Notes under the pieces: model-generated
Seen by the model: only the letters and a program-made list of their open reading frames with translations
Database searches by the model: none
Told to the model about the DNA's origin: nothing
Translations under genes and position numbers: made by a program
Assembly: GCA_938084585.1 (NCBI GenBank)
Contig: CALKFF010000041.1
Location: 20,720-84,719, forward strand
Length of the DNA: 64,000 nucleotides
Direction: 5' to 3'
From: an uncultured Flavobacteriales bacterium
Lineage (GTDB): Bacteria > Bacteroidota > Bacteroidia > Flavobacteriales_D > Sanyastnellaceae
In this document: positions 2,391 through 63,068 of the stretch, piece after piece
Layout of the letters: the number at the start of each line of letters is the position of its first letter
How positions within the stretch are numbered: the first letter of the stretch is position 1

Positions 2391-2885
2391 TCAGATGCAC
2401 TTGAAATGCTCGAACGGCTCCAGGCAGGCGTTGCACTTGAAGTGTGCCTTGCAGGCGGTGCTTCCGAAGGCGGACACCATGGTCGTCTGGTCGGACTTGC
2501 ACGAAGGGCAGGGGACGACCTTGCCTTGTCCTGTCAAGAAGGCCCGGTCTGCGCTCTTGCCCTGGGGCGGGGCGATGCCGTTGACCTTCATTTTCTCGTG
2601 GGCGGAGGGGAGCAGCCAGTCGGTCGTCCAAGCAGGGCTCAAGACCACTTCCACACGGGCGTCGGCTTCCAAGGCCTGCACGGCGGTGGTGATGTCTTCG
2701 GCGATGACGTCGGTGGCAGGGCACCCAGAATACGTGGGGGTGATGGTTACCACGAGTTGTCCATCCTCCACACGCAAGCCTCGGACCATGCCCATTTCTT
2801 CCACAGTCAAGTAGGGGATCTCTGGGTCGTTGACGGACCGGACTTGCACCCAGGCTTGGGCGATGCGCTCCTGGTCAGTCACCAC
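2391..2885 (-). CDS. paaD: phenylacetate-CoA oxygenase subunit PaaD (PaaJ)
   Basis: The ORF-track entry 2391-3044 extends into paaC. A GTG at 2885 (or 2882) overlaps the paaC TGA and gives about 165 aa. DUF59-like N-domain (NDPEIPYLTVEEMGMV) plus a C-terminal Cys cluster (CPSC ... C ... FKCNAC). Confidence 0.8.
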   Translation of the reverse strand: MVTDQERIAQAWVQVRSVNDPEIPYLTVEEMGMVRGLRVEDGQLVVTITPTYSGCPATDVIAEDITTAVQALEADARVEVVLSPAWTTDWLLPSAHEKMKVNGIAPPQGKSADRAFLTGQGKVVPCPSCKSDQTTMVSAFGSTACKAHFKCNACLEPFEHFKCI

Positions 2886-3637
2886 GTGGCGTCGGGGTAC
2901 GTTCGGGGCAGCACTTGCATCTCGGCGAGCATGTAGCTCAGGTGCTCGCTGTGCACGCCTTGCTTGCCGCCACGGTGCGCCCATCCATCCTCGGGCACCC
3001 GCAGGGTCGCCCGTTCCAAGCACGCGACCACCTTGTCGCGCCAAGTGCTTTGGAGCTTGTGAAGGTCAGGCATCAAGCCGGCCTCGGCACAGGCCGTGTC
3101 GACATCGTCGGGCGTGAACAGCTCTCCGGTGTAGGCCCAAAGCTGGTCCACGCTGTCTTGCACCTTTTGGTGACTTTCAGGGGTGCCGTCGCCGAGTCGA
3201 ATGACCCATTGCGCGGCGTGCTCCCAATGGTAGTGCAGTTCCTTGACCGCTTTGGCGGCGATGCCCGCCACGTCCGCATTCACGGTTTGGCGCGCCAAGA
3301 AAGCGCAACGGTCCAGCGCGAAGGCGCTGAAGAACATTTGACGCACCACGGTGTCGCCGAAGTGCCCGTTGGGCTGCTCCACCAGCAGGTGGTTTTGGAA
3401 CTCACGGTCAGAGCGGAAGTACGCCAACGCGTCTTCGTCGCGCCCCTGGTTTTCCAACTGGCCGGCCAGGGTGAAGAAGTTTCGCGCTTGGCCAATCAAG
3501 TCCAACGCGATGTTCGACAACGCGATGTCTTCCTCCAAGATGGGACCATGGCCGCACCATGCGGACAAACGTTGACCCAGCACCAGGGCGTCGTCGCCCA
3601 ACCGCAAAACGGCTGCGAAGTGTTGCGATTCCGTCAT
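2879..3637 (-). CDS. paaC: phenylacetate-CoA oxygenase subunit PaaC (PaaI-type ferritin-like, non-catalytic)
   Basis: 252 aa helical ferritin-like protein located between paaB and paaD. ATG at 3637 lies 3 nt after the paaB stop. Confidence 0.8.
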   Translation of the reverse strand: MTESQHFAAVLRLGDDALVLGQRLSAWCGHGPILEEDIALSNIALDLIGQARNFFTLAGQLENQGRDEDALAYFRSDREFQNHLLVEQPNGHFGDTVVRQMFFSAFALDRCAFLARQTVNADVAGIAAKAVKELHYHWEHAAQWVIRLGDGTPESHQKVQDSVDQLWAYTGELFTPDDVDTACAEAGLMPDLHKLQSTWRDKVVACLERATLRVPEDGWAHRGGKQGVHSEHLSYMLAEMQVLPRTYPDATW

Positions 3638-3640
3638 GGC

Positions 3641-3934
3641 TCACATGTTGTTGACCTCGTCGGGCAACTTGTAGAAGGTGGGGTGACGGTACACTTTGTC
3701 GTTGGCCGGATCAAACAAGACGTCCTTGTCGTCCGGGCTCGAAGCGGTGATGGCTTCTGCCGGCACCACCCAAATGCTCACGCCTTCCTGACGGCGAGTG
3801 TAGACGTCACGCGCGTTCTGGATGGCCATTTGGGCGTCGGCCGCGTGAAGCGAACCGGCATGTTTGTGACCGAGGCCTTGACGGCTCCGAATGAACACTT
3901 CCCAGAGGGGCCACTCGTGCTTGGATTCGCTCAT
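3641..3934 (-). CDS. paaB: phenylacetate-CoA oxygenase subunit PaaB
   Basis: 97 aa. Conserved PaaB core [42 protein letters not shown] overlap with the paaA stop. Confidence 0.85.
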
Positions 3935-4899
3935 GCCGCGTGGGTGGAGGCGTTGGCGTTCTTCTGGCGGGCGGCTTCTTTGGTGGCGTAGGCGTTCGCC
4001 GCGTCACGCACCCAAGCGCCGTCTTCGTAGGCTTTGACCCGCGCGCCGAGGCGCTCCTTATTGCATGGGCCGTTGCCCTTGATCACGTTGTAGAATTCGT
4101 CCCAGTTGATTGCGCCGAAGTCGTAGTGTCCGCGTTCCTCGTTCCACTTCAAGTCGGGGTCTGGCAGGGTCAAGCCCAGCAATTCCGACTGCGGCACGGT
4201 CATGTCGACAAACCGCTGACGCAGCTCGTCGTTGGAGAACCGCTTGATGTTCCACTTCATGCTTTGGGCCGAGTGCGGAGAATCTGCGTCGCTCGGACCA
4301 AACATCATCAACGACGGCCACCACCACCGGTTCAACGCGTCTTGCGCCATGGCTTTTTGCTCGGGCGTGCCTTGGGCGAGGTTCAACATGACCTGGAACC
4401 CTTGACGCTGGTGGAAGCTCTCCTCCTTGCACACACGCACCATGGCGCGGGCATACGGGCCGTAGCTGCACTTGCAGAGGGGAACTTGATTCATGATCGC
4501 GGCGCCATCGACCAGCCACCCCACGGCACCCATGTCGGCCCAGGTGAGGGTGGGGTAGTTGAAGATGGAGCTGTACTTCGCCTTTCCGGCGTGGAGGTCC
4601 TGCAGCATTTGGTCCCGGGTGACCCCAAGAGTTTCCGCAGCCGAGTAGAGGTAGAGTCCATGGCCTGCTTCGTCCTGGACCTTGGCCAGCAAGATGGCCT
4701 TGCGCTTCAGGGACGGCGCCCGGGAAATCCAGTTTCCTTCAGGCAGCATACCGACAATTTCGCTGTGGGCGTGTTGGCTGATTTGACGGATCAACGTCTT
4801 GCGGTAAGCGTCGGGCATCCAGTCTTTGGGCTCGATCTTTTTCTCTTCCGCAACGTAGGCGTCAAAGCGTGCTTCCAGGTTCATTTCTACAGGACTCAT
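3931..4899 (-). CDS. paaA: phenylacetate-CoA oxygenase catalytic subunit PaaA (diiron)
   Basis: Ferritin-like diiron protein ([18 protein letters not shown]). I start it at ATG 4899 ([15 protein letters not shown]). The ORF-track start at 4974 would run over the promoter box at 4915-4922. Confidence 0.85.
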
Positions 4900-4914
4900 G
4901 CGCGCGATTTTTCT

Positions 4915-4922
4915 CAAAGTTA
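4915..4922 (-). promoter_or_regulatory. Bacteroidota -7 promoter box TAACTTTG for the paaABCDI operon
   Basis: Perfect TAnnTTTG on the minus strand, 15 nt upstream of the paaA ATG. A GTGAcaaTCAC palindrome lies about 25 nt further upstream in the paaA/paaE divergent spacer. Confidence 0.4.
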
Positions 4923-4996
4923 CGCTGAGTCGTGTGTGCGTCGTTTGGTGACAATCACAATGTGCCCAAACCATGGTGTGGACTACTTTCGCCTTT

Positions 4997-6061
4997 ATGC
5001 CGACGTTTCACGACATCCAAGTCCAAAGCGTGCACCGCGAGACCGCCGAATCGGTGGTGGTGGCCCTGGACATCCCCGACGCATTGCGTGCCGACTTTCA
5101 GTTTGCGGCGGGCCAGTATTTGACCCTGCGCACGACCATCGACGGCGAAGACATCCGCCGCAGCTATTCGCTCTGTTCGTCGCCCGGTGACGGGGCGTGG
5201 CACGTGGGCATCAAGAAGGTGCCCGGGGGCAAGTTCTCGACCTACGCAAACGACGTGCTCAAGGCAGGGGACACCTTGCAAGTGATGGACCCCCAAGGCC
5301 GCTTCGTCTTGGCCGAGGGCGCCGGCAAGCACCACGTGGGCTTCGCGGCGGGCTCTGGCATCACGCCGATCCTTAGCCAAATCAAGGACGTTCTGAGCAC
5401 AGACCCCGCCTCCAGCTACACGCTGTTTTACGCCAACAAGACTGCCGCGAGCACCATGTTCCGCGAAGCGATCCAAGACCTCAAGGACCGTCACCTCGAC
5501 CGTTTGCGGGTGTTTTACCTCCTGACGCGCGAGCCTGTGGACGCCACGTTGTTGTCCGGGCGCTTGGACCAAGCGCGTTGCGCTGATCTGATGAGGGAAT
5601 TCTGCAGCGGCACCGCTGTGGACGCAGCGTACCTCTGTGGCCCCGAGTCGATGATTTTGGGGTGCAAGGAGGCCTTGCTCGCTTTTGGGTTGACAGAAGA
5701 CCAAATCAAGTTTGAACTGTTCACCTCCGCAGGCGCGGCCAAACCCGCTGCCCCGCGCACTGAAGTGGCCGCCGGGGCCGGCGTCCCCATGCAAATTGTG
5801 TTGGACGGCGTCACCACCAGCGTGTCTCTCGACAAGGAGAAAAACATGCTCGATGCCGCGTTGGACGCGGGCCTCGACGCTCCGTACAGCTGCCTTGGCG
5901 GCGTGTGCTGCACCTGCCGCGCGAAGCTGGTCAAGGGAAAGGCCACGATGAACGTGAACTTCGCTTTGGAACCTTCGGAGGTGGAGCGTGGCTACGTCTT
6001 GACCTGCCAGGCCCACGTCGACGGAGACGAGGACGTGGTGCTGGACTTCGACCAGCAATAA
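4997..6061 (+). CDS. paaE: phenylacetate-CoA oxygenase reductase PaaE (FNR-like plus plant-type 2Fe-2S ferredoxin)
   Basis: N-terminus [27 protein letters not shown] parallels E. coli PaaE. RSYS flavin motif, NAD-binding GSGITP, and a C-terminal [13 protein letters not shown] 2Fe-2S cluster. Alternative ATG at 4973. Confidence 0.85.
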
Positions 6062-6136: not shown

Positions 6137-9100
6137 TCAGCGGACTTTGATCCAAGGGAGTTGACGCGTGGTGCCGAGCTGCGTCACATGCACGATGTAC
6201 ATGCCAGGCGTCCACGACGTCGCATCGAGAATCCAATCGCCGTCCACACCGCGTGTGTCGTTTGTGGCATCCATCACCATCCGACCGTCGGCGTTGAACA
6301 CCACCACGGTTGGCGCCGCGTCGGTGCCGCTGTGTTGGCTTCGGATGGTCAAATGGTCTTGTCCTGGGTTGGGGAAGAGCTCCAAAGTCCACTCGCTTGC
6401 GGATGGGTCGCCGAGGCTTGCGGTGCCGTCGCCGTCACCTCCGTTGTCAGGGGTCTCGCACTCCATGCCGACGCCCACCACACGAAGTTCGTAGTCGCCT
6501 TCTTCGAGGGTCATGGTGCCTGCAGACTCTCCGTCCACAAACAGCTCGGCCATCGCGCCGTTCCATCCGTCGCCGAAGGTGTCCAACATTTCCACGGTGT
6601 AGCATCCTGCGGGCACACATCCCACTGAAGACCCGGTGTAGCCGTCCATCTCCATGAGCACATCACCTTCGTCGTTCGACACATTCAAGCCCACTTCGTC
6701 AGGCATCAAACCGCCGTCCAACACAAACTCCACCTCAAACATGCCGTCGCACAAGTTGTCGAAGATGCAAGAGCCGTCGTTGATCAAGGCGTCAGGGTTG
6801 TAGTTGGTCGCCACGGGGTCGGTGCAGCCGAGGTACGAGTCCAAGTCGAAATCGCCTTCTTCGCAGATGTTGCCCAAGCTGAATTGAACCACCCAAGTGT
6901 CTTCCCCGGTGGGCCATTCGGCGTAGGCCAAGTCTTCAAAGGCGGTGTTCACCCCAAACAGGCCGTCGTTCCACTCCAGCTCGCCGTCCCACGCACCGGT
7001 CACCATAGCCGTGTAGCACACGCCAGGTTCGATGCAGACCTCGCCGTACACCCCTCCGAAGTTGAACACGTCCTGCTCGGAGAAGACCAAGTCGCCCGCT
7101 TCCGAAACGATGTTCAACGTGGTGGACGGGAGGGACGTGTAGAGGTACACGTAGCCCACCTCGCCGTTCTCGCACACGAAGGGGTATTGGCATGACCCGT
7201 CGTCCACCGTGGCGGAAGGATGGTAGTTCAACGCTTCAGGATCGGTGCATCCCGGGATCGTGACTTCACAGCCGTCGGTGTTCACACCGAGCGCAAACAC
7301 CGCGCTGTATTCGTCCGCCGGCACGGAGTAGGAGGTGGACACCCCGTCAAGGATGACCTCGGCGCTGCCTGCGCCTGGAATCCATCCGTAGTCGTTGAGG
7401 TAGAAGTTGTAACATCCGTCTGCGACACATCCGTAGGAGACGGTGGAGAACTCATCGTAGTCGTACACCAAGTTGATGTGCTGGCCCAAATCTGTGGTGA
7501 GTGTCCAGTACAGCGACACAAACCCGCCAAACTCGTCCAACGAATCGGTGGCCATGGTCTGGATGACAACCTCTGTTTCCCCGGCGCCGCACACAGGGAT
7601 GAAGGCGCATGAGCCGTCGTCGTCGGTGGCGTCAGGGTTGTAGTTCAACGCCTCCGGGTCGGTGCATCCGTAAATCGGCTGGTCTGCGCAATCGCCGTCC
7701 CACACGATCCACGCGTTCCAGCACTCGGCCTCACACGCGTTGTTGAAGGTCACATAGTCGCCCACGAAGGAGTCGTACGCGCACACAGGGTCGTAGATCT
7801 CCGGACATTCGCAAGGGTAGAGGCAGTACCCGTCGTCGATGTTCGCGTCGGGGTTGTAGTTCATGGCCTCGCTGTCCATGCATCCGTACACAGGGATGAA
7901 GAGCTCGCAGTCTTCCGTGTTGACCCCAATGGCGTAAGCGGCCTCAAACTGCCCTTCGGGGATGGTGTACGTGGTGGTCTCGTCGCCCAAGGTGATGTCC
8001 ACGCTGGTCAACCCAGGCTCCCATCCGTAGTCATACATGAAGAAGTTGTAGCAGCCGTCGGCCAAACAACCGTAGGCGTTGGCAGCTTCCCACTGGCTGT
8101 AGTCGTACACCAAATCCACGTGCACACCCGCCGCATCGGTCAAGGTCCAGTACAAGGAGTAGTAGAACCCAAGGTCGACCAACGAGTCGTTGCCGTTCAC
8201 TTCAATCGTCACGGCAGTTTCGTCGTCCGCACATGTCGGAATGGTGACGCACGATCCGTCGTCGGCCGTGGCGTCGGGGTTGTAGTTCACCGCTTCCTCG
8301 TCGGTGCATCCGTAGATCGGCTGGTCTGCGCAATCGCCTTCCCACACGATGTACGCTTGGGCGCAAGACGCTTCGCACGCGTTGTTGAAGGTCACGTACT
8401 CTCCGGTGAGGTAGTCGTAGCCGCACACGGGATCGTAGACGTCGTCGCACTCACACTCGTAAGAACAAGAACCGTCGTCCACCGTGGCGTAGGGATCGTA
8501 GTTGAACGCGTAAGGGTCGGTGCAACCCGCGGTCTCCACAATTTGGGTCTCGCACTCGAGACCAAATGAAACCGTCTGGTGGTAACCCTCCTCCAATGAG
8601 AAGGTGCCCAAAGACACCCCCAAATCGGGGATGCTCACTTCCAGCGACGCGCCGTTCCATCCGTCGCCAAAGCTGTCAATCATGTCCAGCTCGAGGCAAC
8701 CTGCACTGTCGCTCAAACAGAACGAGGCGTAGGCCATGTCGTAGTCGTTCAAGCCTTGCCCTTCGGCCAACACGCCGTTGTCGTCGGACAAGATGAAGCT
8801 CACTTCGCCGCCCCACATCTCCGTCTGGAGCGTCAACAAGACGGTCACTTCGTCGCTGCCGCACTCCAACGTGCCCACACAGGAGCCGTCGTCGATGTTC
8901 GCGTCGGGGTTGTAGTTGAGGGCATCCTCGTCGGTGCAACCGTACACGGGCAATTCGTCGCAGTCGCCCTCGGCGATCACCCAAGCCTGGGCGCACTCCG
9001 CTTCGCACGCGTTGGGGAAGGTGGTGTACTCGCCAGTGATGTGGTTGAAGGCGCAAACAGGCTCGTCGATGTCCTCACATTCGCAGTCGTACGAGCACGA

Positions 9101-10189
9101 GCCGTCGTCCACGGTGGCTGTCGGGTCGTAGTTGAAGGCGAAGGGGTCGGTGCATCCTTCGATTTGGACTTCTCCCGTCTCACAATCCACCCCAAAGATG
9201 ATGGCCTGGAACGACCCTTCTGCCAGCGTGAACGTGCCGAGGTCCAGATCCTCGGAGGGCACAGTCACGGTCAGCGTCGCGCCGTTCCATCCGTCGCCGA
9301 AGCTGTCCACCATGGTCAGCACGAGGCAACCCGCAGTGTTGTTCAAGCAGAAGTAGCCTTCGGTTGTGGCGTAGTCAGTGAAGCCTTGGCCTTCCAACAA
9401 CACGCCAGCGTCGTCGGACAAGGAGAAGCTGACTTCTCCACCCCATGAGGCGGTCGTCAACGTGGCCACGGCCAACATTTGGTCGTCGCCACACTCGGGA
9501 ACCACCACACACGAGCCGTCGTCGTCGGTGGCGTCGGGGTTGTAGTTGACTGCGTTTTCGTCGGTGCATCCGTACACGGGCTGTGCGGCGCAATCGCCCT
9601 CAGACACAATCCACGCTTGGGCGCATTCGGCCTCGCACGCGTTGTCGTAAGTCGTGTAGGTCCCTGTCAAATAGTTGTACCCGCACACCGGTGCATCGAC
9701 GTCTTCGCATTCGCAGTCGTAGGAGCACGTCCCGTCGTCCACGGTGGCGTAAGGATCGTAGTTGAACGCGGTGGGGTCGGTGCACCCTTCCACCTCCACA
9801 ATCTCCACGTCGCATCCCACGCCAAAGGACATGGACTGGAAGTCTCCCTCCTCGAGGGTGAAGCTGCCCAAGGACACGCCCAACGCGGGAACGGTGATGT
9901 CCAAGAAGGCATCGTTCCAACCGTCGCCGAAACTGTCGGTCATTTCCAACACCAGACATCCTTCCACGTTGTCGACGCAGAAGAGCTCGGTGTAGGTGCT
10001 GAAGTCTCCGAAATCTTGTCCGGAGACCAACACGCCGTTGTCGTCAGAAATGGTGTAGGAAATTTCACCGCCCCACATCTGGGTGGTGAGGGTGGCCAAG
10101 ACTTCCGTGCTGCAATCTTGGGCTTGGGAAGTGGATCCCCATGCAAGCATGGCGATCGCCAGAAGAGAAGAAAGGAATGTGGGTTTCAT
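6137..10189 (-). CDS. giant secreted modular Cys-rich protein: four Kazal-like domains, GDGW-type modules, ten GCTDxxAxNYNPxAxxDDGSC mini-repeats, T9SS type-A C-terminal sorting domain
   Basis: Start taken at ATG 10189 (MKPTFLSSLLAIAMLAWGSTSQAQ signal peptide). About 1350 aa, very acidic, with an even Cys count per module. C-terminus LELFPNPGQDHLTIRS ... GMYIVHVTQLGTTRQLPWIKVR matches the T9SS CTD pattern. See findings for module coordinates. Confidence 0.8.
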   Translation of the reverse strand: MKPTFLSSLLAIAMLAWGSTSQAQDCSTEVLATLTTQMWGGEISYTISDDNGVLVSGQDFGDFSTYTELFCVDNVEGCLVLEMTDSFGDGWNDAFLDITVPALGVSLGSFTLEEGDFQSMSFGVGCDVEIVEVEGCTDPTAFNYDPYATVDDGTCSYDCECEDVDAPVCGYNYLTGTYTTYDNACEAECAQAWIVSEGDCAAQPVYGCTDENAVNYNPDATDDDGSCVVVPECGDDQMLAVATLTTASWGGEVSFSLSDDAGVLLEGQGFTDYATTEGYFCLNNTAGCLVLTMVDSFGDGWNGATLTVTVPSEDLDLGTFTLAEGSFQAIIFGVDCETGEVQIEGCTDPFAFNYDPTATVDDGSCSYDCECEDIDEPVCAFNHITGEYTTFPNACEAECAQAWVIAEGDCDELPVYGCTDEDALNYNPDANIDDGSCVGTLECGSDEVTVLLTLQTEMWGGEVSFILSDDNGVLAEGQGLNDYDMAYASFCLSDSAGCLELDMIDSFGDGWNGASLEVSIPDLGVSLGTFSLEEGYHQTVSFGLECETQIVETAGCTDPYAFNYDPYATVDDGSCSYECECDDVYDPVCGYDYLTGEYVTFNNACEASCAQAYIVWEGDCADQPIYGCTDEEAVNYNPDATADDGSCVTIPTCADDETAVTIEVNGNDSLVDLGFYYSLYWTLTDAAGVHVDLVYDYSQWEAANAYGCLADGCYNFFMYDYGWEPGLTSVDITLGDETTTYTIPEGQFEAAYAIGVNTEDCELFIPVYGCMDSEAMNYNPDANIDDGYCLYPCECPEIYDPVCAYDSFVGDYVTFNNACEAECWNAWIVWDGDCADQPIYGCTDPEALNYNPDATDDDGSCAFIPVCGAGETEVVIQTMATDSLDEFGGFVSLYWTLTTDLGQHINLVYDYDEFSTVSYGCVADGCYNFYLNDYGWIPGAGSAEVILDGVSTSYSVPADEYSAVFALGVNTDGCEVTIPGCTDPEALNYHPSATVDDGSCQYPFVCENGEVGYVYLYTSLPSTTLNIVSEAGDLVFSEQDVFNFGGVYGEVCIEPGVCYTAMVTGAWDGELEWNDGLFGVNTAFEDLAYAEWPTGEDTWVVQFSLGNICEEGDFDLDSYLGCTDPVATNYNPDALINDGSCIFDNLCDGMFEVEFVLDGGLMPDEVGLNVSNDEGDVLMEMDGYTGSSVGCVPAGCYTVEMLDTFGDGWNGAMAELFVDGESAGTMTLEEGDYELRVVGVGMECETPDNGGDGDGTASLGDPSASEWTLELFPNPGQDHLTIRSQHSGTDAAPTVVVFNADGRMVMDATNDTRGVDGDWILDATSWTPGMYIVHVTQLGTTRQLPWIKVR
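6140..6385 (-). other. T9SS (Por secretion) type-A C-terminal sorting domain of the giant protein
   Basis: Last 82 aa. LxLFPNPxxxxLxI N-motif and a GxYxVxV ... K(V/I)(R/K) C-motif, as remembered for TIGR04183. Confidence 0.7.
7175..8233 (-). repeat. two diverged copies of a variant super-module (YDYGW-type instead of DSFGDGWNG-type)
   Basis: Residues 669-882 and 883-1021 share LYWTLT, LVYDY, GC(L/V)ADGCYNF and DYGW motifs. The second copy lacks the Kazal-like unit. Confidence 0.7.
7670..7813 (-). other. Kazal-like domain 4
   Basis: CECPEIYDPVCAYDSFVGDYVTFNNACEAECWNAWIVWDGDC. Confidence 0.55.
8312..8455 (-). other. Kazal-like domain 3
   Basis: CECDDVYDPVCGYDYLTGEYVTFNNACEASCAQAYIVWEGDC. Confidence 0.55.
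8942..9085 (-). other. Kazal-like domain 2
   Basis: CECEDIDEPVCAFNHITGEYTTFPNACEAECAQAWVIAEGDC. Confidence 0.55.
9572..9715 (-). other. Kazal-like domain 1
   Basis: CECEDVDAPVCGYNYLTGTYTTYDNACEAECAQAWIVSEGDC. Six Cys, PVCG, and the TYxNxC hallmark. Confidence 0.55.
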
Positions 10190-10261
10190 GGTAGACCTTG
10201 AGGTTGGGTATTGGAGTTCGAACCTAGAACACCTCAAGGCCCAGAAGGTTGCCTCAGGGAA

Positions 10262-43928: not shown

Positions 43929-45680
43929 TCAGAAGGCGTATTGCACGCCGCCAAGCACTTGAAATCCTTGCACCGGGTGCCCGCCCCACACGCTGTACCT
44001 CGTGTTGGCCAAGTTGGCCAGCGTCAGCCAGGCGCCCAAGCGGTCGTTGTATCGGTAATTGGTGGTCAGGTTGACGTCGAAATAACCTGGAAGTGCAAGT
44101 TGGTAATTGCCGTTGTCCAAGGGCTCAGGGTTGCCGTAGTTGGGGTCTTTGCTCAAGGCGTAGCGCTCACCGACGTATTGCACGTCTGCCTGGACGACAA
44201 GCCCTTCAATGACTTGGTAGGACACCGCGGCATCCCAGAGGAGGGTGGGGAGGTGCCATGCCTGGTCTTCGTTCCGCAGTTTGTAGCTGTTCAGGGTCAA
44301 GCTCCCTTTCAATTCAAACCGCTTTCCCAACGACAAGCCAACTTCACCTCCCAACGTGCGCACGTTCACGGTGTCGTACACCGCTTCAAACGAGGCGTAG
44401 GACGCGGTGTCGTTCACGACGGTGGAGGGCTTGAACAGCAAGAAATCCTCGTGCTGCGCCGAACTCGCGTGCCCATGGAACCGGAAATGTTCGGTCACGG
44501 TGCCGCGCACACCGCCGGCAAACGCCAGTCGCTTGTTCGTCGAGCGGAAGCCCGAGGCTTGGATGGTTTGGCTGTTCAACACCACCGGGCTGTCGAGGTG
44601 GTCGGGCGCAAAGAAGGGGTTGAGTTCCAAGGCGTCGTGCAGGTTGTTGGCCAAAAGTCCCCCGCCCACCTTCGCGTAGGGCACAAAGAGGTTGCGGAAC
44701 AAATTGACAGAGACCTCAGCACGCGGGTACACGTGCACAACGTCTCCAATTTCATCCCGGGTGGGTTGGTCCGCATCCAAGGCCACCCCAAGGCCCACCG
44801 TCGCGCGCCAGGGGCCTTTTTCTGTGGAGAGCTTGGGGTTCAACTGCACGATGGCCTGGTTGTAGGTCCGCGCGGTGTCCAATTGCGTGCGGTCCAGCTG
44901 GGCTTCCACCCCGATGTCCAACCGTTTGCCCCCCACATGGCGATGAAGGTTCAATTCGCCCTTGACGTGCCGTTCTGCGAGCCCGAGGTTGTTGGTCAGG
45001 TAATCGAACGCCGTGTTGAATTCGTGGTTGAACGCCGTGCTGTCCTTGCGGTGGCTTTTCAGCTGCAGGGCGGCACCAGCATGTCTCCATCGCAGGGCAG
45101 TCGCATCCACCGAGATGCTGTCCACAAACGTGCTGTCAAACCCAAACATCCGTGTTTTGTGCTGACCGACTTGGGCGTTGAAGGAGACCTTTTCCTGCCC
45201 GACAAAGCGCGAGTTCCACGCGTTGAACGTGTTTTCGTGAATCCTGCCAGAAAGCAGGTTGGATGGAGAGGAGGTGGAGGCATGGTGCAACGACGTGCCC
45301 CAACTGCCTTCACGGGACCGGAGATCCGTGTAGCTCGCGTCCAACAAGCTCGTGCCTCTGCTTCCGCCCCCGGCGCGAACGTGACCTCTGTAGAGGCGGG
45401 AGAGGGACGCGTCCACCCTCAGGCGCGTGGCCTCCACTGGGGTCATGGTGGGCTCGAATTGAAGCCGCTTCGAAAGCAGGTCGTAGCTCAATGTGGGCTT
45501 CTCGGAAGAGAGAGGCCTGGCCATGGGCCAGGAGCTCAACTTCACGGCGTCCCGCACTTCCATGGTGCGCTTGCCCACAAAGGTGACGTCCATGTCCAGG
45601 GAGTCCTGCTGGGTCAGTCCAGCCAGCGGCAGGAGGGCCCAACACACGAGGGACAATGCGAGGTGATTCGGCTGCTTCAT
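43929..45680 (-). CDS. large outer-membrane beta-barrel protein (hypothetical porin-like)
   Basis: 583 aa. Signal peptide MKQPNHLALSLVCWALLPLAGLTQQ. Alternating beta-strand pattern throughout. C-terminal GGVQYAF (terminal Phe). ATGA overlap with the TPR gene's stop. Confidence 0.7.
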   Translation of the reverse strand: MKQPNHLALSLVCWALLPLAGLTQQDSLDMDVTFVGKRTMEVRDAVKLSSWPMARPLSSEKPTLSYDLLSKRLQFEPTMTPVEATRLRVDASLSRLYRGHVRAGGGSRGTSLLDASYTDLRSREGSWGTSLHHASTSSPSNLLSGRIHENTFNAWNSRFVGQEKVSFNAQVGQHKTRMFGFDSTFVDSISVDATALRWRHAGAALQLKSHRKDSTAFNHEFNTAFDYLTNNLGLAERHVKGELNLHRHVGGKRLDIGVEAQLDRTQLDTARTYNQAIVQLNPKLSTEKGPWRATVGLGVALDADQPTRDEIGDVVHVYPRAEVSVNLFRNLFVPYAKVGGGLLANNLHDALELNPFFAPDHLDSPVVLNSQTIQASGFRSTNKRLAFAGGVRGTVTEHFRFHGHASSAQHEDFLLFKPSTVVNDTASYASFEAVYDTVNVRTLGGEVGLSLGKRFELKGSLTLNSYKLRNEDQAWHLPTLLWDAAVSYQVIEGLVVQADVQYVGERYALSKDPNYGNPEPLDNGNYQLALPGYFDVNLTTNYRYNDRLGAWLTLANLANTRYSVWGGHPVQGFQVLGGVQYAF

Positions 45681-48600
45681 TCTTGGTTGGGTTCAGTGGT
45701 TGCGGCTTCCAACGCGTCGATTTCAAGGAGAAGGTCGGAGACGGCCTCTTGCACCTCGGCGACTTGCACGTTGGCGAGGATGGAATTGGCGGTGGCACGG
45801 GCTTGGAACAAGTCGTTCATACCGATGTAAGCCTTGACCAACAGCAAGAATCCTTTGTTTTTCCAGGCGTCTTGGTTGTAGAACTGCTCAATCAGTCCAA
45901 ACAGCTTTTCCTCACAAGCGTCATAGGCGCCGGCGTTGTGGTCGTGTTCTGCCAAGAGGTACTGGGCTTCCGCCCCCGCACTGCCGCCAAAGGTGACGAG
46001 GGTGGCCAAATCCTCCAGGACTGTGCTGTGCTCGCCCCGGTTGCACGCGATGCGCGCGTTCCAAAGTTGGGCGGTTCGTTGGATGTCGTCCGGCGTGGCA
46101 GGATCGTACATCACGCGCGCGGCAAAGTTGGCCGCTTCGTCCTCCTGGCCCAGAAGGTAGTGGCAGCGCATTTGGCCGATGGCCGCTTCCAAGCGGTTCG
46201 ACTGCAGGGCGGCAAGCTCTTCCAGCGTCTCGTAATGCCCCAATGCTTCGCGGTGCTGTCCGTTGTTCCACGCGATGGTGGCGGCCCCGAGGGCGGCGGC
46301 TTCGCTGAAGTCTCCCGCGGGCAGGGCGAGCACCGACACGTACGACACGTACGCCGAGTCAGGGAGGTTTTGGTCAAAGAGGCAATTCGCCAAGTAGAAT
46401 TGCGCTTCTGCCATGTGTGTGCCCCCTGGGTACTGGCGCATGTACTCCGACAAACGCGGAATCGCTTCAGCGCAGCGATCTTCCAGCGCCAGGTACGAGG
46501 CCGATTCGAAGAACCGTTGCTCGATCTCGGCCCCGTCCAAGCCCACCGCAGGAGGGAGGTTGTCCAACAAGCCCCGCTGAATCAACAGAGGCTCCACGAT
46601 GTTGTACGCGTCGGCGGCCACGTTGTCGTTGCCGTAGTTGGTCCGGATGTTGTCCCAAAGGCTCAGCACCTTGTCGTCCTCGCCTTGTTTGACGTGGACC
46701 AAGCACAACTCCACGAGCGCCTCCTTGGCGCGAGGTGTGGCAGAATAGGATTGAATCAGGGTGTTCAGCTTGTCTTCAGCTGCGGCAAGCGCACCCTCTT
46801 CGATGTGGGTGCGGGAAGCTTGGAACAGCGCTTCCACCACCAAGCGGCTTTCTGGGAAATCGGCCAGCAGCTGCTCCAAACGCTTGACTTGCGCCCCAGG
46901 GTCCTCGTTGAGTTTGGCGGCCATGGCGCTTTGGAACAAGGCGTAATCCATGGGCTTGACGCCCCGTGCCAAAACCCGGTCGTAGTACTCGCCGGCTTGC
47001 TCAAACGACTTCAAGGCGTAGAAGCAGTCGGCGGTGCGCAGCTCTGCGTCGCGCATGCGGGAAGGGTCGCCCTGGGGGCCGGTTTCCAAGTAGGACCGGA
47101 ATGCCGACAAGGCGTCGGTGTACTTCTCGCTCTTGAAGTGGGCGTACCCACGGGCGTAATCGGCGTCGTTGTGGAGTTCGCTCAAGTAGCTGCCCGGGGT
47201 GGTGCTGAACTTGGCAAACGCTGCGGCAGCAGGTGTGAACTTCCCTTGGTTGTACAGAATCTCACCTTCCCAGTAGAACGTCTCGGCGTGCATTTGCGGG
47301 TCCACGTTGTTGGATCGGCTCTTGCGGAAGAAGACCAGCGCGCGGTCGAGCTGCTTGTTCTGGTACAACTCCACCGCGCGGTTGAAGGCCAGCACCTGGG
47401 CAGCCGCCATGACGGTTTGGTCTGGCTCGGAGATGTTGTCCAGCACCCCCAACGCCCTTTCGTAGTCTCGGCTGGTCATGTGCACTTGCAGCAGGAACCG
47501 GTAGGCCTCGTCGCGCCTGGGGGAGGCGGGGAACTGGGTCAAGTACGACTCGAACGCCACAATGGCGTCGTCGAAGGGGTTGAAGGACAGCTCGAAGGCC
47601 AGCTTGGCGTAGTGGAAGAACGCGTCTTCCTGAATGTCCAAGTCGAAGTCTGGCAGTGAAGCGGTTCGGAAGGCTTGCTTCGCCCTGGCGCGGTCGCCAA
47701 GCTCGAGGTAGCAGTCTGCCATGTGGTACGCCGCGTTTTGGGCCAACTCGTCTTCGCCGTAGGTCGCCAGAGGGAGGCAGTCCAACGCGCCACGCCATTC
47801 TCCCAAGCGGTAGCGGGTGTAGCCCATCTGGTAGGCGAATTCAGGACCTCGGCCAGGTCCGTCGGTGCCTTCCCAGGCCAACTCCAGGTACGGCGAGGCG
47901 GTCTCGAACGCGCCGTCTCTGTACCATGCGTCGCCCAAGAGGTGGGCCACTTCCGCCACACTCTCTTCATCCAGTCCACTCGACTCGTCAAGGAGCGGTG
48001 GGGCGTATTCCTTGAGTCGGTCGAATTGTCCTGTGGCGTGCAATAGTTGGGCGATGTACAACGGGACCAACTCCGCGAAGGCAGGGTGGTCGGCGATGCG
48101 TTCGAAGCCGTCCAAGGCCACCTGAGGCTGGCCATTGAGGTAGGCGATGTGACTGAAGTAGTACTGGGCCGGGGCTTGGAATTCGCCCTCCACGTCCAAG
48201 ACGTCGTACAGGTACACGCGGGCCTTCTCGAATGCTTCACGCTCGAACAAGCAGTGTCCCAATTTGAAGCGGAGCTCGTCGCGCTTGGGCTTGGCCAAAT
48301 CTCGAATCCGGATGCCCATGAACTCCTCGGACGCCCTTGAGTAATTCTTCCGCTTGTAGTGGTAATTCGCGAGCTCCCAGTGGGCCTGAAGGGCCAGCGG
48401 GCTTTCTGGGAAGTCGGCCATGAACCCCTTCACCCGAACCACCGCATCCTTGTGGTACAACGCCAAGGCGCTCATGGCCGCATGGTAGCTCGCGTCGACG
48501 AAATCGTTCGATTCGACGTTGTCCGCGTCGTCAATCCACGATTCGAAGGCGTAAAGGGCCAAGGCGTAACGTTGCTGATTGAACGCTTCTTTCGCACGTG

Positions 48601-48733
48601 CCAACTCTGTGGCGCGGTGGTCTGTGGCTTGGGTCCATTGGGCCGAGGCCTCGTGTCCAACAGCGCATGCGGCGGTCAAGCCGATGGCCAAGGTCACTGG
48701 GGCCAAATGAGAACGAAGGGGGAGGTAGGGCAT
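45677..48733 (-). CDS. giant tetratricopeptide-repeat (TPR) protein, exported (possible lipoprotein)
   Basis: 1018 aa. Signal peptide with ...LTAAC. Helical TPR-like repeats (A..Y..A......Y..A...F) run across the whole length. Confidence 0.75.
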   Translation of the reverse strand: MPYLPLRSHLAPVTLAIGLTAACAVGHEASAQWTQATDHRATELARAKEAFNQQRYALALYAFESWIDDADNVESNDFVDASYHAAMSALALYHKDAVVRVKGFMADFPESPLALQAHWELANYHYKRKNYSRASEEFMGIRIRDLAKPKRDELRFKLGHCLFEREAFEKARVYLYDVLDVEGEFQAPAQYYFSHIAYLNGQPQVALDGFERIADHPAFAELVPLYIAQLLHATGQFDRLKEYAPPLLDESSGLDEESVAEVAHLLGDAWYRDGAFETASPYLELAWEGTDGPGRGPEFAYQMGYTRYRLGEWRGALDCLPLATYGEDELAQNAAYHMADCYLELGDRARAKQAFRTASLPDFDLDIQEDAFFHYAKLAFELSFNPFDDAIVAFESYLTQFPASPRRDEAYRFLLQVHMTSRDYERALGVLDNISEPDQTVMAAAQVLAFNRAVELYQNKQLDRALVFFRKSRSNNVDPQMHAETFYWEGEILYNQGKFTPAAAAFAKFSTTPGSYLSELHNDADYARGYAHFKSEKYTDALSAFRSYLETGPQGDPSRMRDAELRTADCFYALKSFEQAGEYYDRVLARGVKPMDYALFQSAMAAKLNEDPGAQVKRLEQLLADFPESRLVVEALFQASRTHIEEGALAAAEDKLNTLIQSYSATPRAKEALVELCLVHVKQGEDDKVLSLWDNIRTNYGNDNVAADAYNIVEPLLIQRGLLDNLPPAVGLDGAEIEQRFFESASYLALEDRCAEAIPRLSEYMRQYPGGTHMAEAQFYLANCLFDQNLPDSAYVSYVSVLALPAGDFSEAAALGAATIAWNNGQHREALGHYETLEELAALQSNRLEAAIGQMRCHYLLGQEDEAANFAARVMYDPATPDDIQRTAQLWNARIACNRGEHSTVLEDLATLVTFGGSAGAEAQYLLAEHDHNAGAYDACEEKLFGLIEQFYNQDAWKNKGFLLLVKAYIGMNDLFQARATANSILANVQVAEVQEAVSDLLLEIDALEAATTEPNQE

Positions 48734-50848: not shown

Positions 50849-50850
50849 GG

Positions 50851-62553: not shown

Positions 62554-62579
62554 GTGTTTGAAGATTGGATGTTCAGGTT

Positions 62580-63068
62580 TCAACGTGCGTCTTCGGCTGT
62601 GGCTTGCCAGTCCATTCGGCCCACCAACCGTTCGATGCGCGTGTAAATTTCATTCAAGTTGGGTCCACCGTAGCGGTTCATCACCGACCAGTCGTGGATG
62701 GTCAGGGTGGTCGAAGGCAAGTCCATCACCCTAGGGTCGTCGTAGCGCGCGGCCAACGTGTCGAAGCCCATGGCCCGGGCCTCGTCGGCCACCAAGCCCC
62801 AGACGCCCACATCGACCTGCGCGGTGTGTCGCCCTTGCGACAGCGAACGGCCGAATGCTTCGTCGCAGAACCGTCCGACGTCCAAGGTCGCTCGGCCGTC
62901 GCTCAGCACACGCAGAGAATACACAGGGCAACGGCCGTGGCAGGGGGTGCGCTCCAAGCCCACCAACACCGCGTCAGAAGTCCCGCTGGAAATCGTGTCC
63001 TGGGTGGATCCGCAAGACCACGCAAGGCATCCCAGCGCCACAAACCACGTCGACAACACCCCTCGCAT
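62580..63068 (-). CDS. small lipoprotein, DUF6438-like (hypothetical)
   Basis: Lipobox LGCLAWSC. ERTPCHGRCPVYSL motif as I remember for DUF6438. ATG 63068 shares one base with the yidC stop (TGATG). GTG 63071 is the alternative start. Confidence 0.6.
   Translation of the reverse strand: MRGVLSTWFVALGCLAWSCGSTQDTISSGTSDAVLVGLERTPCHGRCPVYSLRVLSDGRATLDVGRFCDEAFGRSLSQGRHTAQVDVGVWGLVADEARAMGFDTLAARYDDPRVMDLPSTTLTIHDWSVMNRYGGPNLNEIYTRIERLVGRMDWQATAEDAR

What the first reader, a model, noticed from the sequence alone, without database searches (positions are those of the whole stretch)
6137..10189. Giant T9SS cargo built from four Kazal-like domains, GDGW-type modules and ten acidic Cys-clamped mini-repeats
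Reading the 1350-aa translation shows a strictly modular protein.

- **Signal peptide.**
- **Module A**, about 110 aa, with invariant WGGE(I/V)S and DSFGDGWNG motifs and 4 Cys.
- **Mini-repeat**, 24-26 aa, GCTDxxAxNY(N/D)PxAxxDDGSC. There are ten copies with DxDDG-like acidic loops, possibly Ca-binding.
- **Kazal-like unit**, 48 aa: C-x-C-x7-C(PVCG/A)-x15-C(TYxNxC)-x3-C-x10-C. This carries the Kazal hallmarks PVC-G and T-Y/F-x-N-x-C. There are four copies.
- **Type-A T9SS sorting domain** at the C-terminus.

Kazal domains are overwhelmingly eukaryotic. A bacterial surface or secreted protein displaying four of them would be a multi-headed protease inhibitor or decoy. Possible roles are protection against grazer or host proteases, or control of the cell's own secreted peptidases. 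The A module matches no family that I can name. This is the least ordinary gene in the window.
Basis: partly seen in the sequence, partly recalled or inferred. Interest (0 to 1): 0.7.

Follow-up and report, generated by a model that had tools for sequence, protein, structure and literature searches.

The report
Bacterial secreted protein with four Kazal domains
A marine Flavobacteriales bacterium encodes a 1350-residue, extremely acidic, almost lysine/arginine-free protein exported by the type IX secretion system. It strings together four genuine Kazal-type protease-inhibitor domains, seven copies of a large uncharacterised beta-sandwich domain and ten small disulfide-clamped connectors, and no member of its family has been studied.

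Summary
Window 6137..10189 (minus strand) is one 1350-aa gene: signal peptide, ten mini-repeats, four Kazal-like units and a type-A T9SS tail that passes curated cutoffs.

The Kazal call holds. Single units fall below Pfam's cutoff. A 69-unit family profile hits leech tryptase inhibitor (LDTI) at E=6.5e-8, and all 33 PDB hits are Kazal domains. The AF2 model superposes on LDTI (TM 0.74-0.83). The units are non-classical group II Kazals with a 5-residue insertion.

- **Reactive loop:** conserved and acidic, C-[ED]-[DE]-[VI]-Y-[ED]-P-V-C. This matches published subtilisin-specific Kazal heads.
- **Mini-repeat:** homologous to the "EGF-like" connector of perforin-2/MPEG1 (E=8e-6). Calcium binding was not tested.
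- **GDGW module:** a confident beta-sandwich absent from Pfam and PDB, with 9,337 cluster representatives, nearly all T9SS cargo.
- **Composition:** the mature passenger has 245 Asp+Glu and 1 Lys/Arg, a family-wide trait. Relatives fuse the same modules to a trypsin-like protease.

My best reading is a protease-resistant exoprotein with four subtilase-inhibitor heads. Inhibition is inferred, not shown. I rate it a new variant of a known kind, interest 0.6.

The parts
6137..10189 (-). Whole gene, 1350 codons plus stop at 6137-6139
   Evidence: The orthologue P0001 is 97% identical and has the same length.
10124..10189 (-). Sec-type signal peptide, aa 1-22 (MKPTFLSSLLAIAMLAWGSTSQ, then A/QDC)
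   Evidence: Read from the sequence. Not run through a predictor.
9794..10120 (-). GDGW beta-sandwich module 1, aa 24-132
   Evidence: Family HMM E=5e-32. AF2 model pLDDT 91.8 with nine strands.
9725..9793 (-). Mini-repeat 1, aa 133-155 (perforin-2-type connector)
9590..9715 (-). Kazal unit 1, aa 159-200, loop C-E-D-V-D-A-P-V-C
9509..9577 (-). Mini-repeat 2, aa 205-227
9164..9496 (-). GDGW module 2, aa 232-342
   Evidence: Family HMM E=1.5e-31.
9095..9163 (-). Mini-repeat 3, aa 343-365
8960..9085 (-). Kazal unit 2, aa 369-410, loop C-E-D-I-D-E-P-V-C
   Evidence: Kazal_2 E=0.004; family profile.
8879..8947 (-). Mini-repeat 4, aa 415-437
8534..8866 (-). GDGW module 3, aa 442-552
   Evidence: Family HMM E=2.8e-32.
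8465..8533 (-). Mini-repeat 5, aa 553-575
8330..8455 (-). Kazal unit 3, aa 579-620, loop C-D-D-V-Y-D-P-V-C
   Evidence: Kazal_2 E=0.003. Its positional orthologues are 69-88% identical.
8249..8317 (-). Mini-repeat 6, aa 625-647
7892..8236 (-). GDGW-family module 4 (DYGW variant), aa 652-766
   Evidence: Family HMM E=1e-15; alignment.
7823..7891 (-). Mini-repeat 7, aa 767-789 (GCMD variant)
7688..7813 (-). Kazal unit 4, aa 793-834, loop C-P-E-I-Y-D-P-V-C
   Evidence: Kazal_2 E=0.009 and Kazal_1 E=0.02. Its positional orthologues are 74-95% identical.
7607..7675 (-). Mini-repeat 8, aa 839-861
7259..7594 (-). GDGW-family module 5 (DYGW variant), aa 866-977
   Evidence: Family HMM E=1.3e-9.
7190..7258 (-). 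Mini-repeat 9, aa 978-1000
6836..7180 (-). GDGW-family module 6 (divergent, GAWDGELEWNDG), aa 1004-1118
   Evidence: Family HMM E=1.9e-7.
6767..6835 (-). Mini-repeat 10, aa 1119-1141
6437..6754 (-). GDGW module 7 (DTFGDGWNG), aa 1146-1251
   Evidence: Family HMM E=2.6e-31.
6140..6379 (-). T9SS type-A C-terminal sorting domain, aa 1271-1350. It holds 6 of the protein's 8 Lys/Arg.
   Evidence: TIGR04183 30.7 bits (cutoff 23); PF18962 29.9 bits (cutoff 27). Lys/Arg positions.

Best explanation
The gene encodes a T9SS-exported exoprotein, either surface-attached or released. It is built from 21 small disulfide-stabilised modules:
- seven GDGW beta-sandwiches, probably binding or spacer modules;
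- ten 23-residue Cys-clamped connectors of the kind that bridges the MACPF and P2 domains in perforin-2;
- four non-classical (group II, LDTI-like) Kazal domains.

I think the Kazal domains most likely act as standard-mechanism (canonical-loop) inhibitors of subtilisin-like (S8) serine proteases. Their loop, C-[ED]-[DE]-[VI]-Y-[ED]-P-V-C, combines an acidic P1 with a P2' Tyr, as in published subtilisin-specific Kazal heads. The near-total absence of Lys and Arg from the mature part would make the protein a poor substrate for trypsin-like proteases. That includes the Asp189-type S1 proteases that relatives fuse to the same modules.

Shown: the domain identities, the secretion signal, the composition, and the size and habitat of the family.
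Inferred: inhibition, the target protease class, the protective role of Lys/Arg avoidance, and a binding role for the GDGW modules.
For: **Kazal identity**
- The unit profile hits LDTI at E=6.5e-8, rhodniin at 1.5e-5, the Anemonia elastase inhibitor at 5e-5 and RECK at 6e-5. All 33 PDB hits are Kazal domains.
- 58 of 69 units hit Pfam Kazal_2 at E<=0.1. Relatives P0053 and P0107 exceed the Pfam cutoff.
- The AF2 model (pLDDT 89.6) superposes on LDTI with TM 0.74-0.83, rmsd 1.9-3.0 A and 40-42% identity.
- Six Cys, Pro-Val before C3 and the spacer Asn are invariant.
- The Cys-x3-Cys spacing defines non-classical group II (PMC3082530).

**Target class**
- P1 is Asp in 124 and Glu in 28 of 153 units, and P2' is Tyr in 122.
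- PMC3082530 reports that Glu at P1 makes Kazal heads subtilisin-specific. In CrSPI-1 domain 2 (C-T-E-E-Y, Ki 2.5 nM) the P2' Tyr stacks on subtilisin.

**Inhibitor-like evolution**
- More distant relatives keep the scaffold but change P1 to Met, Ala, Gln, Ser or Asn.

**Secretion**
- The CTD passes two curated cutoffs.

**Composition**
- Residues 23-1270 have 245 Asp+Glu and 1 Lys/Arg, against 9-13% Lys+Arg in neighbouring proteins.
- 114 of 120 family members have at most 3 Lys/Arg in the passenger.
- P0076 and P0115 carry a full Trypsin domain (E about 1e-52) with Asp at the 189-equivalent position, followed by near Lys/Arg-free GDGW/mini tails.

**Conservation**
- Kazal units 3 and 4 are conserved position by position among orthologues.
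Against: - No biochemical data exist for any family member.
- The query's own units are below Pfam's gathering score.
- Foldseek E-values for the Kazal match are only about 0.05, because the domain is small.
- Natural Kazal inhibitors typically have hypervariable contact residues (PMC1236909). Within this subfamily the loop is strongly conserved.
- The protein is acidic throughout, so acidic loop residues may partly reflect overall composition.
- Units 1 and 2 have Asp, not Tyr, at P2'.
- The 5-residue insertion between C3 and C4 has no characterised counterpart.
- No S8 protease or other partner is encoded nearby, and the neighbours are housekeeping genes.
- Many Kazal-like modules in eukaryotes are not inhibitors. 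Follistatin-type, SLCO-transporter and RECK modules also appear among the profile hits.
Confidence: 0.45

Rival explanations
1. The protein is a polyanionic adhesin or cation-binding surface protein. In this reading the Kazal-like units are only rigid disulfide-rich structural or ligand-binding modules, as in follistatin, agrin, RECK or SLCO proteins, with no protease inhibition. The GDGW sandwiches do the binding, and the extreme negative charge binds Ca2+, Mg2+, metals or cationic surfaces.
For: - The loop is conserved rather than hypervariable (rule in PMC1236909).
- The whole passenger is hyper-acidic (245 Asp+Glu).
- Kazal units are optional in the family: 0-4 per protein, and only 4 of 130 further GDGW representatives have any.
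- GDGW modules co-occur with adhesin-type domains: PKD, SprB, Ig_7 and discoidin.
- Weak fold resemblance to Ca-dependent CBM60 and the LecB lectin, TM about 0.3-0.45.
- Non-inhibitory Kazal modules (RECK, SLCO) are among the profile hits.
Against: - Every residue that holds a canonical inhibitory loop is kept: P3 Cys, the spacer Asn, Pro-Val, and Tyr at P2' in units 3 and 4.
- The closest relatives by sequence and by fold are active inhibitors: LDTI, rhodniin and silk protease inhibitor 2.
- P1 varies among distant relatives on an unchanged scaffold.
- No significant structural match to any lectin or CBM was found.
Confidence: 0.3
2. The protein is a self-directed regulator. The Kazal heads inhibit the lineage's own secreted S1 trypsin-family proteases, which are paralogues carrying the same GDGW and mini modules, to limit self-damage at the cell surface.
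For: - Family members P0076 and P0115 fuse a complete Trypsin domain to the same modules.
- The closest solved Kazal, LDTI, is a trypsin/tryptase inhibitor.
Against: - Those proteases have Asp at the 189-equivalent position, which implies Lys/Arg specificity.
- The Kazal P1 is Asp or Glu in 152 of 153 units. By established P1-S1 complementarity, an acidic P1 binds a trypsin-type pocket poorly.
- The Lys/Arg-free composition excludes a basic P1.
- No such protease lies in the window.
Confidence: 0.07
3. The Kazal heads target Glu/Asp-specific serine endopeptidases (glutamyl endopeptidase type) from competitors, grazers or phage, rather than subtilases.
For: - P1 is acidic in 152 of 153 units.
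- From established knowledge, Glu-specific S1 enzymes prefer an acidic P1.
Against: - The published precedent for acidic-P1 Kazal heads is subtilisin inhibition (PMC3082530).
- Asp, not Glu, dominates P1 here.
- No candidate enzyme was identified.
Confidence: 0.1

Closest known systems
Leech-derived tryptase inhibitor (LDTI), rhodniin and bdellin B-3: non-classical group II Kazal inhibitors
   Same: All six Cys align and the Cys-x3-Cys helix motif is shared. The C1-x-C2 and C2-x7-C3 spacings match, as do PVCG and T-Y-x-N-x-C. Identity is 40-42% and TM is 0.74-0.83 (classification from PMC3082530).
   Different: These units have a 5-residue insertion between C3 and C4. P1 is Asp/Glu where LDTI has Lys. 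They are bacterial, embedded in a 1350-aa T9SS cargo, and fall below the Pfam cutoff when scanned alone.
CrSPI-1 (horseshoe crab), SPIPm2 (shrimp) and EPI1/EPI10 (Phytophthora): Kazal inhibitors of subtilisin-family proteases
   Same: All combine an acidic P1 with a P2' Tyr in a canonical loop and have multi-headed arrangements. In EPI1, a microbe secretes the inhibitor to block extracellular subtilases (PMC3082530, PMC1236909, PMC9904509).
   Different: Those proteins are eukaryotic, small (2-5 heads with no other domains) and biochemically proven. CrSPI-1 belongs to group I, not group II. Here the function is only inferred.
[quoted passage not shown]
   Same: The mini-repeat profile matches MPEG1 residues 330-353 ([24 protein letters not shown]) at E=8e-6. 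The local structural match covers 27 columns at 48% identity and rmsd 1.9 A. In both proteins the element sits between globular domains (PMC9713709).
   Different: MPEG1 has one copy in a metazoan pore-forming protein. This protein has ten copies, and relatives have up to 18. No MACPF domain is present.
Modular T9SS type-A cargo of Bacteroidota (large repetitive surface proteins and adhesins)
   Same: An N-terminal signal peptide, a long repetitive passenger of small beta-rich modules and a TIGR04183 C-terminal domain. Relatives combine the same modules with PKD, SprB and Ig_7 domains.
   Different: The module set (GDGW, perforin-2-type connector, Kazal) and the near-zero Lys/Arg content are not described for characterised cargo in any paper found.
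Ecotin, the best-known bacterial serine-protease inhibitor
   Same: A bacterial protein that protects against exogenous serine proteases (PMC9904509).
   Different: Ecotin has an unrelated fold, is a periplasmic dimer, and has broad specificity through a different mechanism of loop presentation.

Membership tests
Kazal-type serine protease inhibitor domain (MEROPS I1; Pfam PF00050/PF07648) | Score above Pfam's curated gathering cutoff | tested here: not met
   The four query units score 14.1-18.1 bits against Kazal_2 (cutoff 22.8), and the whole protein gives no Kazal hit. Relatives P0053 (25.3) and P0107 (25.8) do pass.
Kazal-type serine protease inhibitor domain (MEROPS I1; Pfam PF00050/PF07648) | Significant profile-level homology to proven Kazal inhibitors | tested here: met
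   The 69-unit profile hits LDTI at 6.5e-8, rhodniin at 1.5e-5 and the Anemonia elastase inhibitor at 5.4e-5. All 33 PDB hits at E<=1 are Kazal domains. 58 of 69 units hit Kazal_2 at E<=0.1.
Kazal-type serine protease inhibitor domain (MEROPS I1; Pfam PF00050/PF07648) | Six conserved Cys, the PVCG-type motif and T-Y-x-N-x-C with the conserved (P15'-type) Asn | tested here: met
   C3, C5, P11, C13, N27, C29, C33 and C44 are invariant in 69 units, and V12, T24 and G42 are at least 90% conserved. All six Cys align with those of LDTI.
Kazal-type serine protease inhibitor domain (MEROPS I1; Pfam PF00050/PF07648) | Kazal fold (short helix packed on a small beta-sheet) | tested here: met
   AF2 pLDDT is 89.6, with strand-strand-helix-strand elements. 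The top Foldseek hits are LDTI (1ldt, 2kmo, 1an1) with prob 1.00, TM(target) 0.74-0.83 and rmsd 1.9-3.0 A, followed by silk protease inhibitor 2 and complement C6 FIM. The E-values are weak (0.05-0.4).
Kazal-type serine protease inhibitor domain (MEROPS I1; Pfam PF00050/PF07648) | Disulfide connectivity 1-5/2-4/3-6 | not testable with these tools
   Model coordinates are not exposed. The connectivity is inferred only from the one-to-one Cys alignment and the superposition on LDTI. The pattern itself is stated in PMC1236909.
Kazal-type serine protease inhibitor domain (MEROPS I1; Pfam PF00050/PF07648) | Hypervariable contact residues around a conserved scaffold (Laskowski rule) | tested here: inconclusive
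   Within the subfamily the loop is conserved: P1 is Asp/Glu in 152 of 153 units and P2' is Tyr in 122 of 153. More distant relatives vary P1 to Met, Ala, Gln, Ser or Asn on the same scaffold.
Kazal-type serine protease inhibitor domain (MEROPS I1; Pfam PF00050/PF07648) | Tight-binding inhibition of a serine protease | not testable with these tools
   This needs a biochemical assay.
Non-classical group II Kazal (LDTI, rhodniin, bdellin) | Cystine-stabilised helix motif Cys-x3-Cys, and C1 adjacent to C2 (C-x-C) | tested here: met
   The spacing 1,7,15,3,10 occurs in 142 of 179 distinct units. The definition comes from PMC3082530.
T9SS type-A cargo (TIGR04183 / PF18962 C-terminal domain) | C-terminal sorting domain above the curated cutoffs, at the extreme C-terminus | tested here: met
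   TIGR04183 scores 30.7 bits (cutoff 23) over aa 1271-1348. PF18962 scores 29.9 bits (cutoff 27).
T9SS type-A cargo (TIGR04183 / PF18962 C-terminal domain) | N-terminal Sec signal peptide | tested here: inconclusive
   A typical n-h-c pattern, MKPTFLSSLLAIAMLAWGSTSQA/Q, is seen by eye. No signal-peptide predictor was available.
T9SS type-A cargo (TIGR04183 / PF18962 C-terminal domain) | The host encodes the T9SS machinery, and export depends on it | tested here: inconclusive
   All close relatives are Flavobacteriales MAGs. The window's PorE-like and PorW-like ORFs score below the NCBIfam cutoffs: 162 against 600, and 52 against 250. Dependence on T9SS needs an experiment.
Perforin-2/MPEG1 'EGF-like' bridging element | Sequence and local structural match to MPEG1 residues 330-353 | tested here: met
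   hmmsearch E=8e-6, 28.7 bits, full-length match. Foldseek hit 6u2k_B covers 27 columns at 48% identity and rmsd 1.9 A. The segment is named in PMC9713709.
   No Pfam hit to TSP_3, dockerin or EF-hand-type families at E<=10. Ion binding cannot be assessed here.

The most novel reading that the evidence does not exclude
Marine Flavobacteriales may practise a form of 'self/non-self' extracellular proteolysis. A whole branch of their T9SS exoproteins, thousands of GDGW/mini-repeat proteins, has purged Lys and Arg from the mature secreted part, so that the guild's own Asp189 trypsin-like exoproteases cannot cut them. Those proteases carry the same Lys/Arg-free stalk. In addition, some members, this one included, carry built-in Kazal heads with an acidic P1 that neutralise the other major class of environmental proteases, the subtilases. 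The protein would then be protease-proof surface armour, not just an inhibitor.
Probability: 0.2. Interest if true: 0.8.

Novelty: new variant of a known kind. Interest (0 to 1): 0.6.

Why it matters
- **An unstudied bacterial Kazal lineage.** Kazal inhibitors are textbook eukaryotic proteins. Here a large marine bacterial family (over 4,100 database relatives of the whole protein) carries up to four Kazal domains on T9SS cargo. If they inhibit subtilases, they give a handle on how abundant ocean Flavobacteriales survive in, and shape, the extracellular protease milieu that drives particle and protein degradation.
- **A major uncharacterised domain.** The GDGW module has 9,337 representatives at 50% clustering and no Pfam or PDB relative. 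It now has a confident model to work from.
- **A possible evolutionary trace.** The perforin-2 connector has abundant bacterial homologues, which may bear on the origin of that metazoan immune protein.
- **A testable composition signature.** A passenger with 245 acidic residues and one basic residue, shared family-wide and with trypsin-like paralogues, may reflect selection for protease resistance.

Tried and rejected
- **Whole-protein Pfam and NCBIfam scans** gave only the T9SS tail. Kazal signal appeared only when single units or a profile were used.
- **PHROGs** gave only a weak match to a family of unknown function (phrog_5270, E=1.3e-4).
- **GDGW profile against PDB sequences** found nothing. 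Foldseek against the PDB gave only generic sandwiches at E>=0.012: MmpS5, PLAT/C2, CBM60 and LecB. I therefore rejected calling the module a CBM or a lectin.
- **The search for homologous proteins with the 46-aa Kazal profile** was uninformative, with only 8 candidates. With the 100-aa mini-Kazal-mini profile it returned mostly short mini-repeat arrays.
- **Literature searches** for Kazal+T9SS, Kazal+Flavobacteria, and the GDGW and mini-repeat motifs found nothing relevant. PMC1176446 is not held.
- **Genomic context** shows no conserved functional partner. The neighbours are a paaA/C/K-like cluster, an ABC-F ATPase, CTP synthase and transporters.
- **My first reading of the acidic P1** was that it argues against inhibition. 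I revised this after reading PMC3082530.
- **Nitrogen saving** as the explanation for Lys/Arg loss was considered and judged unlikely, because Asn (4.5%) and Trp (2%) are not depleted.
- **Artefact or non-coding** was rejected: orthologues at 49-97% identity lie in syntenic loci of at least five MAGs.

Full report
**1. The observation**

The window has a single long ORF on the minus strand, 6137..10237 from a TTG. The ATG at 10189 gives 1350 aa, the same length as the 97%-identical orthologue P0001.

Pattern searches on the translation confirm:
- ten mini-repeats (GC[TM]D..A.NY.P.A..DDG.C, fixed C-x18-C);
- four units with spacing C-x-C-x7-C-x15-C-x3-C-x10-C;
- four modules with D[ST]FGDGWN.

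An alignment and a family HMM add three divergent copies of the same ~110-aa module: two DYGW variants and one with GAWDGELEWNDG. The protein therefore has seven such modules.

The architecture is: signal peptide, then [GDGW-mini-Kazal-mini] x3, then GDGW'-mini-Kazal-mini, GDGW'-mini, GDGW''-mini, GDGW, a short linker and the CTD. The 72 Cys are exactly 10x2 + 4x6 + 7x4.

HMMs for each module score this ORF, and no other of the window's 390 ORFs, at 1e-89 to 3e-148. The C-terminal domain passes both curated cutoffs: TIGR04183 scores 30.7 against 23, and PF18962 scores 29.9 against 27.

**2. Are the 42-residue units Kazal domains?**

The whole protein gives no Kazal hit. Isolated units hit Kazal_2 at 14-18 bits (E 0.003-0.05), below the 22.8-bit cutoff. 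The best PDB sequence match of a single unit is leech-derived tryptase inhibitor (LDTI), E=0.006, with all six Cys aligned and one 5-residue insertion.

I collected 179 distinct units from 120 homologues. Of these, 142 share the exact Cys spacing. A profile of 69 diverse units (A1) hits LDTI at E=6.5e-8, rhodniin at 1.5e-5, the Anemonia elastase inhibitor at 5e-5 and RECK at 6e-5. Every one of the 33 PDB hits is a Kazal domain.

Further support:
- 58 of 69 units hit Kazal_2 at E<=0.1.
- Two relatives, P0053 and P0107, pass the Pfam cutoff.
- An AF2 model of mini-Kazal-mini (pLDDT 89.6) has LDTI as its top Foldseek hits, with prob 1.00, TM normalised to the target 0.74-0.83, rmsd 1.9-3.0 A and 40-42% identity. 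Silk protease inhibitor 2 and complement C6 FIM modules follow.

The Foldseek E-values are weak (0.05), as expected for a 42-residue domain inside a 100-residue query. Disulfide geometry could not be measured.

The C-x-C start and the Cys-x3-Cys motif place the units in the 'non-classical group II' class with LDTI, rhodniin and bdellin (definition in PMC3082530). The Kazal call is supported, as a divergent bacterial variant.

**3. The reactive loop**

Taking P3 as C2, the loop is C-[ED]-[DE]-[VI]-Y-[ED]-P-V-C. Among 153 units, P1 is Asp in 124 and Glu in 28, and P2' is Tyr in 122. The spacer Asn two residues before C4 is invariant.

| Unit | Loop |
|---|---|
| 1 | C-E-D-V-D-A-P-V-C |
| 2 | C-E-D-I-D-E-P-V-C |
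| 3 | C-D-D-V-Y-D-P-V-C |
| 4 | C-P-E-I-Y-D-P-V-C |

Natural Kazal inhibitors usually have hypervariable contact residues (PMC1236909), which is not the case here.

I first read the acidic P1 as evidence against inhibition. PMC3082530 changed that. It states that Kazal heads with Glu at P1 (CrSPI-1 domain 2, SPIPm2, EPI1) are subtilisin-specific. In CrSPI-1 domain 2 (C-T-E-E-Y, Ki 2.5 nM) the P2' Tyr stacks on subtilisin.

More distant relatives keep the scaffold but have Met, Ala, Gln, Ser or Asn at P1, some without the insertion. That is the pattern expected of canonical inhibitors.

Units 3 and 4 are conserved with their positional orthologues (69-95% identity) more than with their paralogues (57-74%). 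The copies are therefore old and individually maintained.

**4. The mini-repeat**

Neither Pfam nor PHROGs recognises it. A 20-sequence profile hits one thing in the PDB: residues 330-353 of perforin-2/MPEG1 ([24 protein letters not shown]), E=8e-6. The same chain appeared in the Foldseek list, with 27 columns, 48% identity and rmsd 1.9 A.

[quoted passage not shown] Here the repeat sits between every pair of globular modules, which fits a connector role.

Arrays of the repeat alone are common in Tara Oceans proteins. Calcium binding was not tested.

**5. The GDGW module**

AF2 gives a confident nine-strand beta-sandwich, pLDDT 91.8 and pTM 0.83. The profile finds nothing in PDB sequences. Foldseek against the PDB gives only generic sandwiches at E>=0.012 and TM<=0.51.

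In the viral structure library it matches at TM 0.67-0.70 and E about 1e-5. The targets are domains in a giant-virus 'caspase', a 'putative peptidase' and a T9SS-tailed protein from uncultured viruses.

An exhaustive HMMER scan finds 9,337 cluster representatives at E<=1e-3 and 2,140 at E<=1e-10. The ones sampled are nearly all T9SS cargo with PKD, SprB, Ig_7, discoidin or M64-like domains. The module is a large undescribed domain family whose function remains unknown.

**6. Composition**

Residues 23-1270 contain 245 Asp+Glu and a single Lys/Arg (R1236). Six of the eight Lys/Arg in the protein lie in the CTD, which in characterised T9SS cargo is removed on export (established knowledge of the pathway, not tested here). 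Neighbouring proteins have 9-13% Lys+Arg.

114 of 120 relatives have at most 3 Lys/Arg in the passenger. In the wider GDGW family, depletion tracks the presence of mini-repeats.

Relatives P0076 and P0115 begin with a complete Trypsin domain (E about 1e-52). It has Asp at the 189-equivalent position (GGEDACQGDSGGP), followed by 1,500-2,000 residues of GDGW/mini modules with only 6-14 Lys/Arg. Avoiding trypsin-like cleavage is an attractive explanation, but it is inferred only.

**7. Context and distribution**

Close relatives come from uncultured Flavobacteriales MAGs. One record is labelled Comamonadaceae and is probably misbinned. Many hits are from Tara Oceans.

Synteny is conserved in five loci, but the neighbours are housekeeping genes: a paaA/C/K-like cluster, an ABC-F ATPase and CTP synthase. 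At the same locus the orthologue varies in length, so module number changes in place. No source gives a functional name, and no paper links Kazal domains with T9SS or describes the motifs.

**8. Verdict**

The gene encodes a T9SS exoprotein carrying four genuine, divergent Kazal domains. The most likely mechanism is canonical inhibition of subtilisin-like proteases by a protease-resistant, hyper-acidic modular scaffold (confidence 0.45). The main rival is a non-inhibitory structural or binding role in a polyanionic adhesin (0.3).

It is a new variant of a known kind: known domain types (Kazal, T9SS CTD, perforin-2 connector) in a new bacterial architecture, together with a large unknown domain. 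Interest is 0.6.

Noticed in passing
window 6767-9793 (ten mini-repeats); PDB 6u2j/6u23 residues 330-353: The 23-residue Cys-clamped mini-repeat is homologous (E=8e-6) to the 'EGF-like' element that bridges the MACPF and P2 domains of metazoan perforin-2/MPEG1. Arrays of it are common in Tara Oceans bacterial proteins. Whether bacterial MACPF proteins carry it, which would bear on the origin of MPEG1, was not examined.
   Followed up: partly
window 6380-10120 (mature passenger, aa 23-1270): The passenger has 245 Asp+Glu, 1 Lys/Arg and 5 His, while the CTD (80 aa) holds 6 Lys/Arg. The depletion is family-wide (114 of 120 members) and tracks the presence of mini-repeats in the wider GDGW family.
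   Followed up: partly
proteins P0076 and P0115 (relatives, not in the window): A complete S1 trypsin-family domain, with Asp at the 189-equivalent position, is fused to 8-11 GDGW modules and mini-repeats that are themselves nearly Lys/Arg-free.
   Followed up: partly
window 48839-50938 (-) and 45677-48733 (-): An adjacent PD40+OmpA protein and a 1018-aa TPR protein resemble the T9SS components PorE and PorW/SprE. Both score below the NCBIfam cutoffs: 162 bits against 600, and 52 bits against 250. The TPR protein also has YbgF-like repeats above that model's cutoff (159.7 bits against 90.1).
   Followed up: partly
window 60340-62583 (-): An S46 dipeptidyl-peptidase: Pfam Peptidase_S46 E=7e-238, and Dpp7-like at 782 bits, below the equivalog cutoff of 1200. 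It is a serine exopeptidase and I saw no obvious link to the Kazal protein.
   Followed up: no
L011 6001-8436, compared with window 6137-10189: At the same syntenic locus the orthologue is much shorter and only 49% identical. Module number at this locus changes between related genomes.
   Followed up: partly
loci L004 and L007 (contigs CAZGQI010000104.1 and CAZGQI010000007.1): These records are labelled 'uncultured Comamonadaceae bacterium'. They carry the Flavobacteriales-type T9SS gene and the same syntenic neighbours, so the bin is probably mislabelled or contaminated.
   Followed up: no
window 2879-6061: A phenylacetate-catabolism-like cluster lies immediately downstream of the gene: two PaaA/PaaC-family proteins and a PaaK-type ferredoxin reductase. 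It is convergent with the gene.
   Followed up: no
BFVD entries A0A7D3UU47, A0A218ML01, A0A218MM41 and A0A7S9XDT1: The best structural matches of the GDGW module (TM 0.67-0.70) are domains in proteins annotated as viral: a Fadolivirus 'caspase', a 'putative peptidase' and a T9SS-tailed protein. Some of these may be bacterial contigs misassigned as viral.
   Followed up: no
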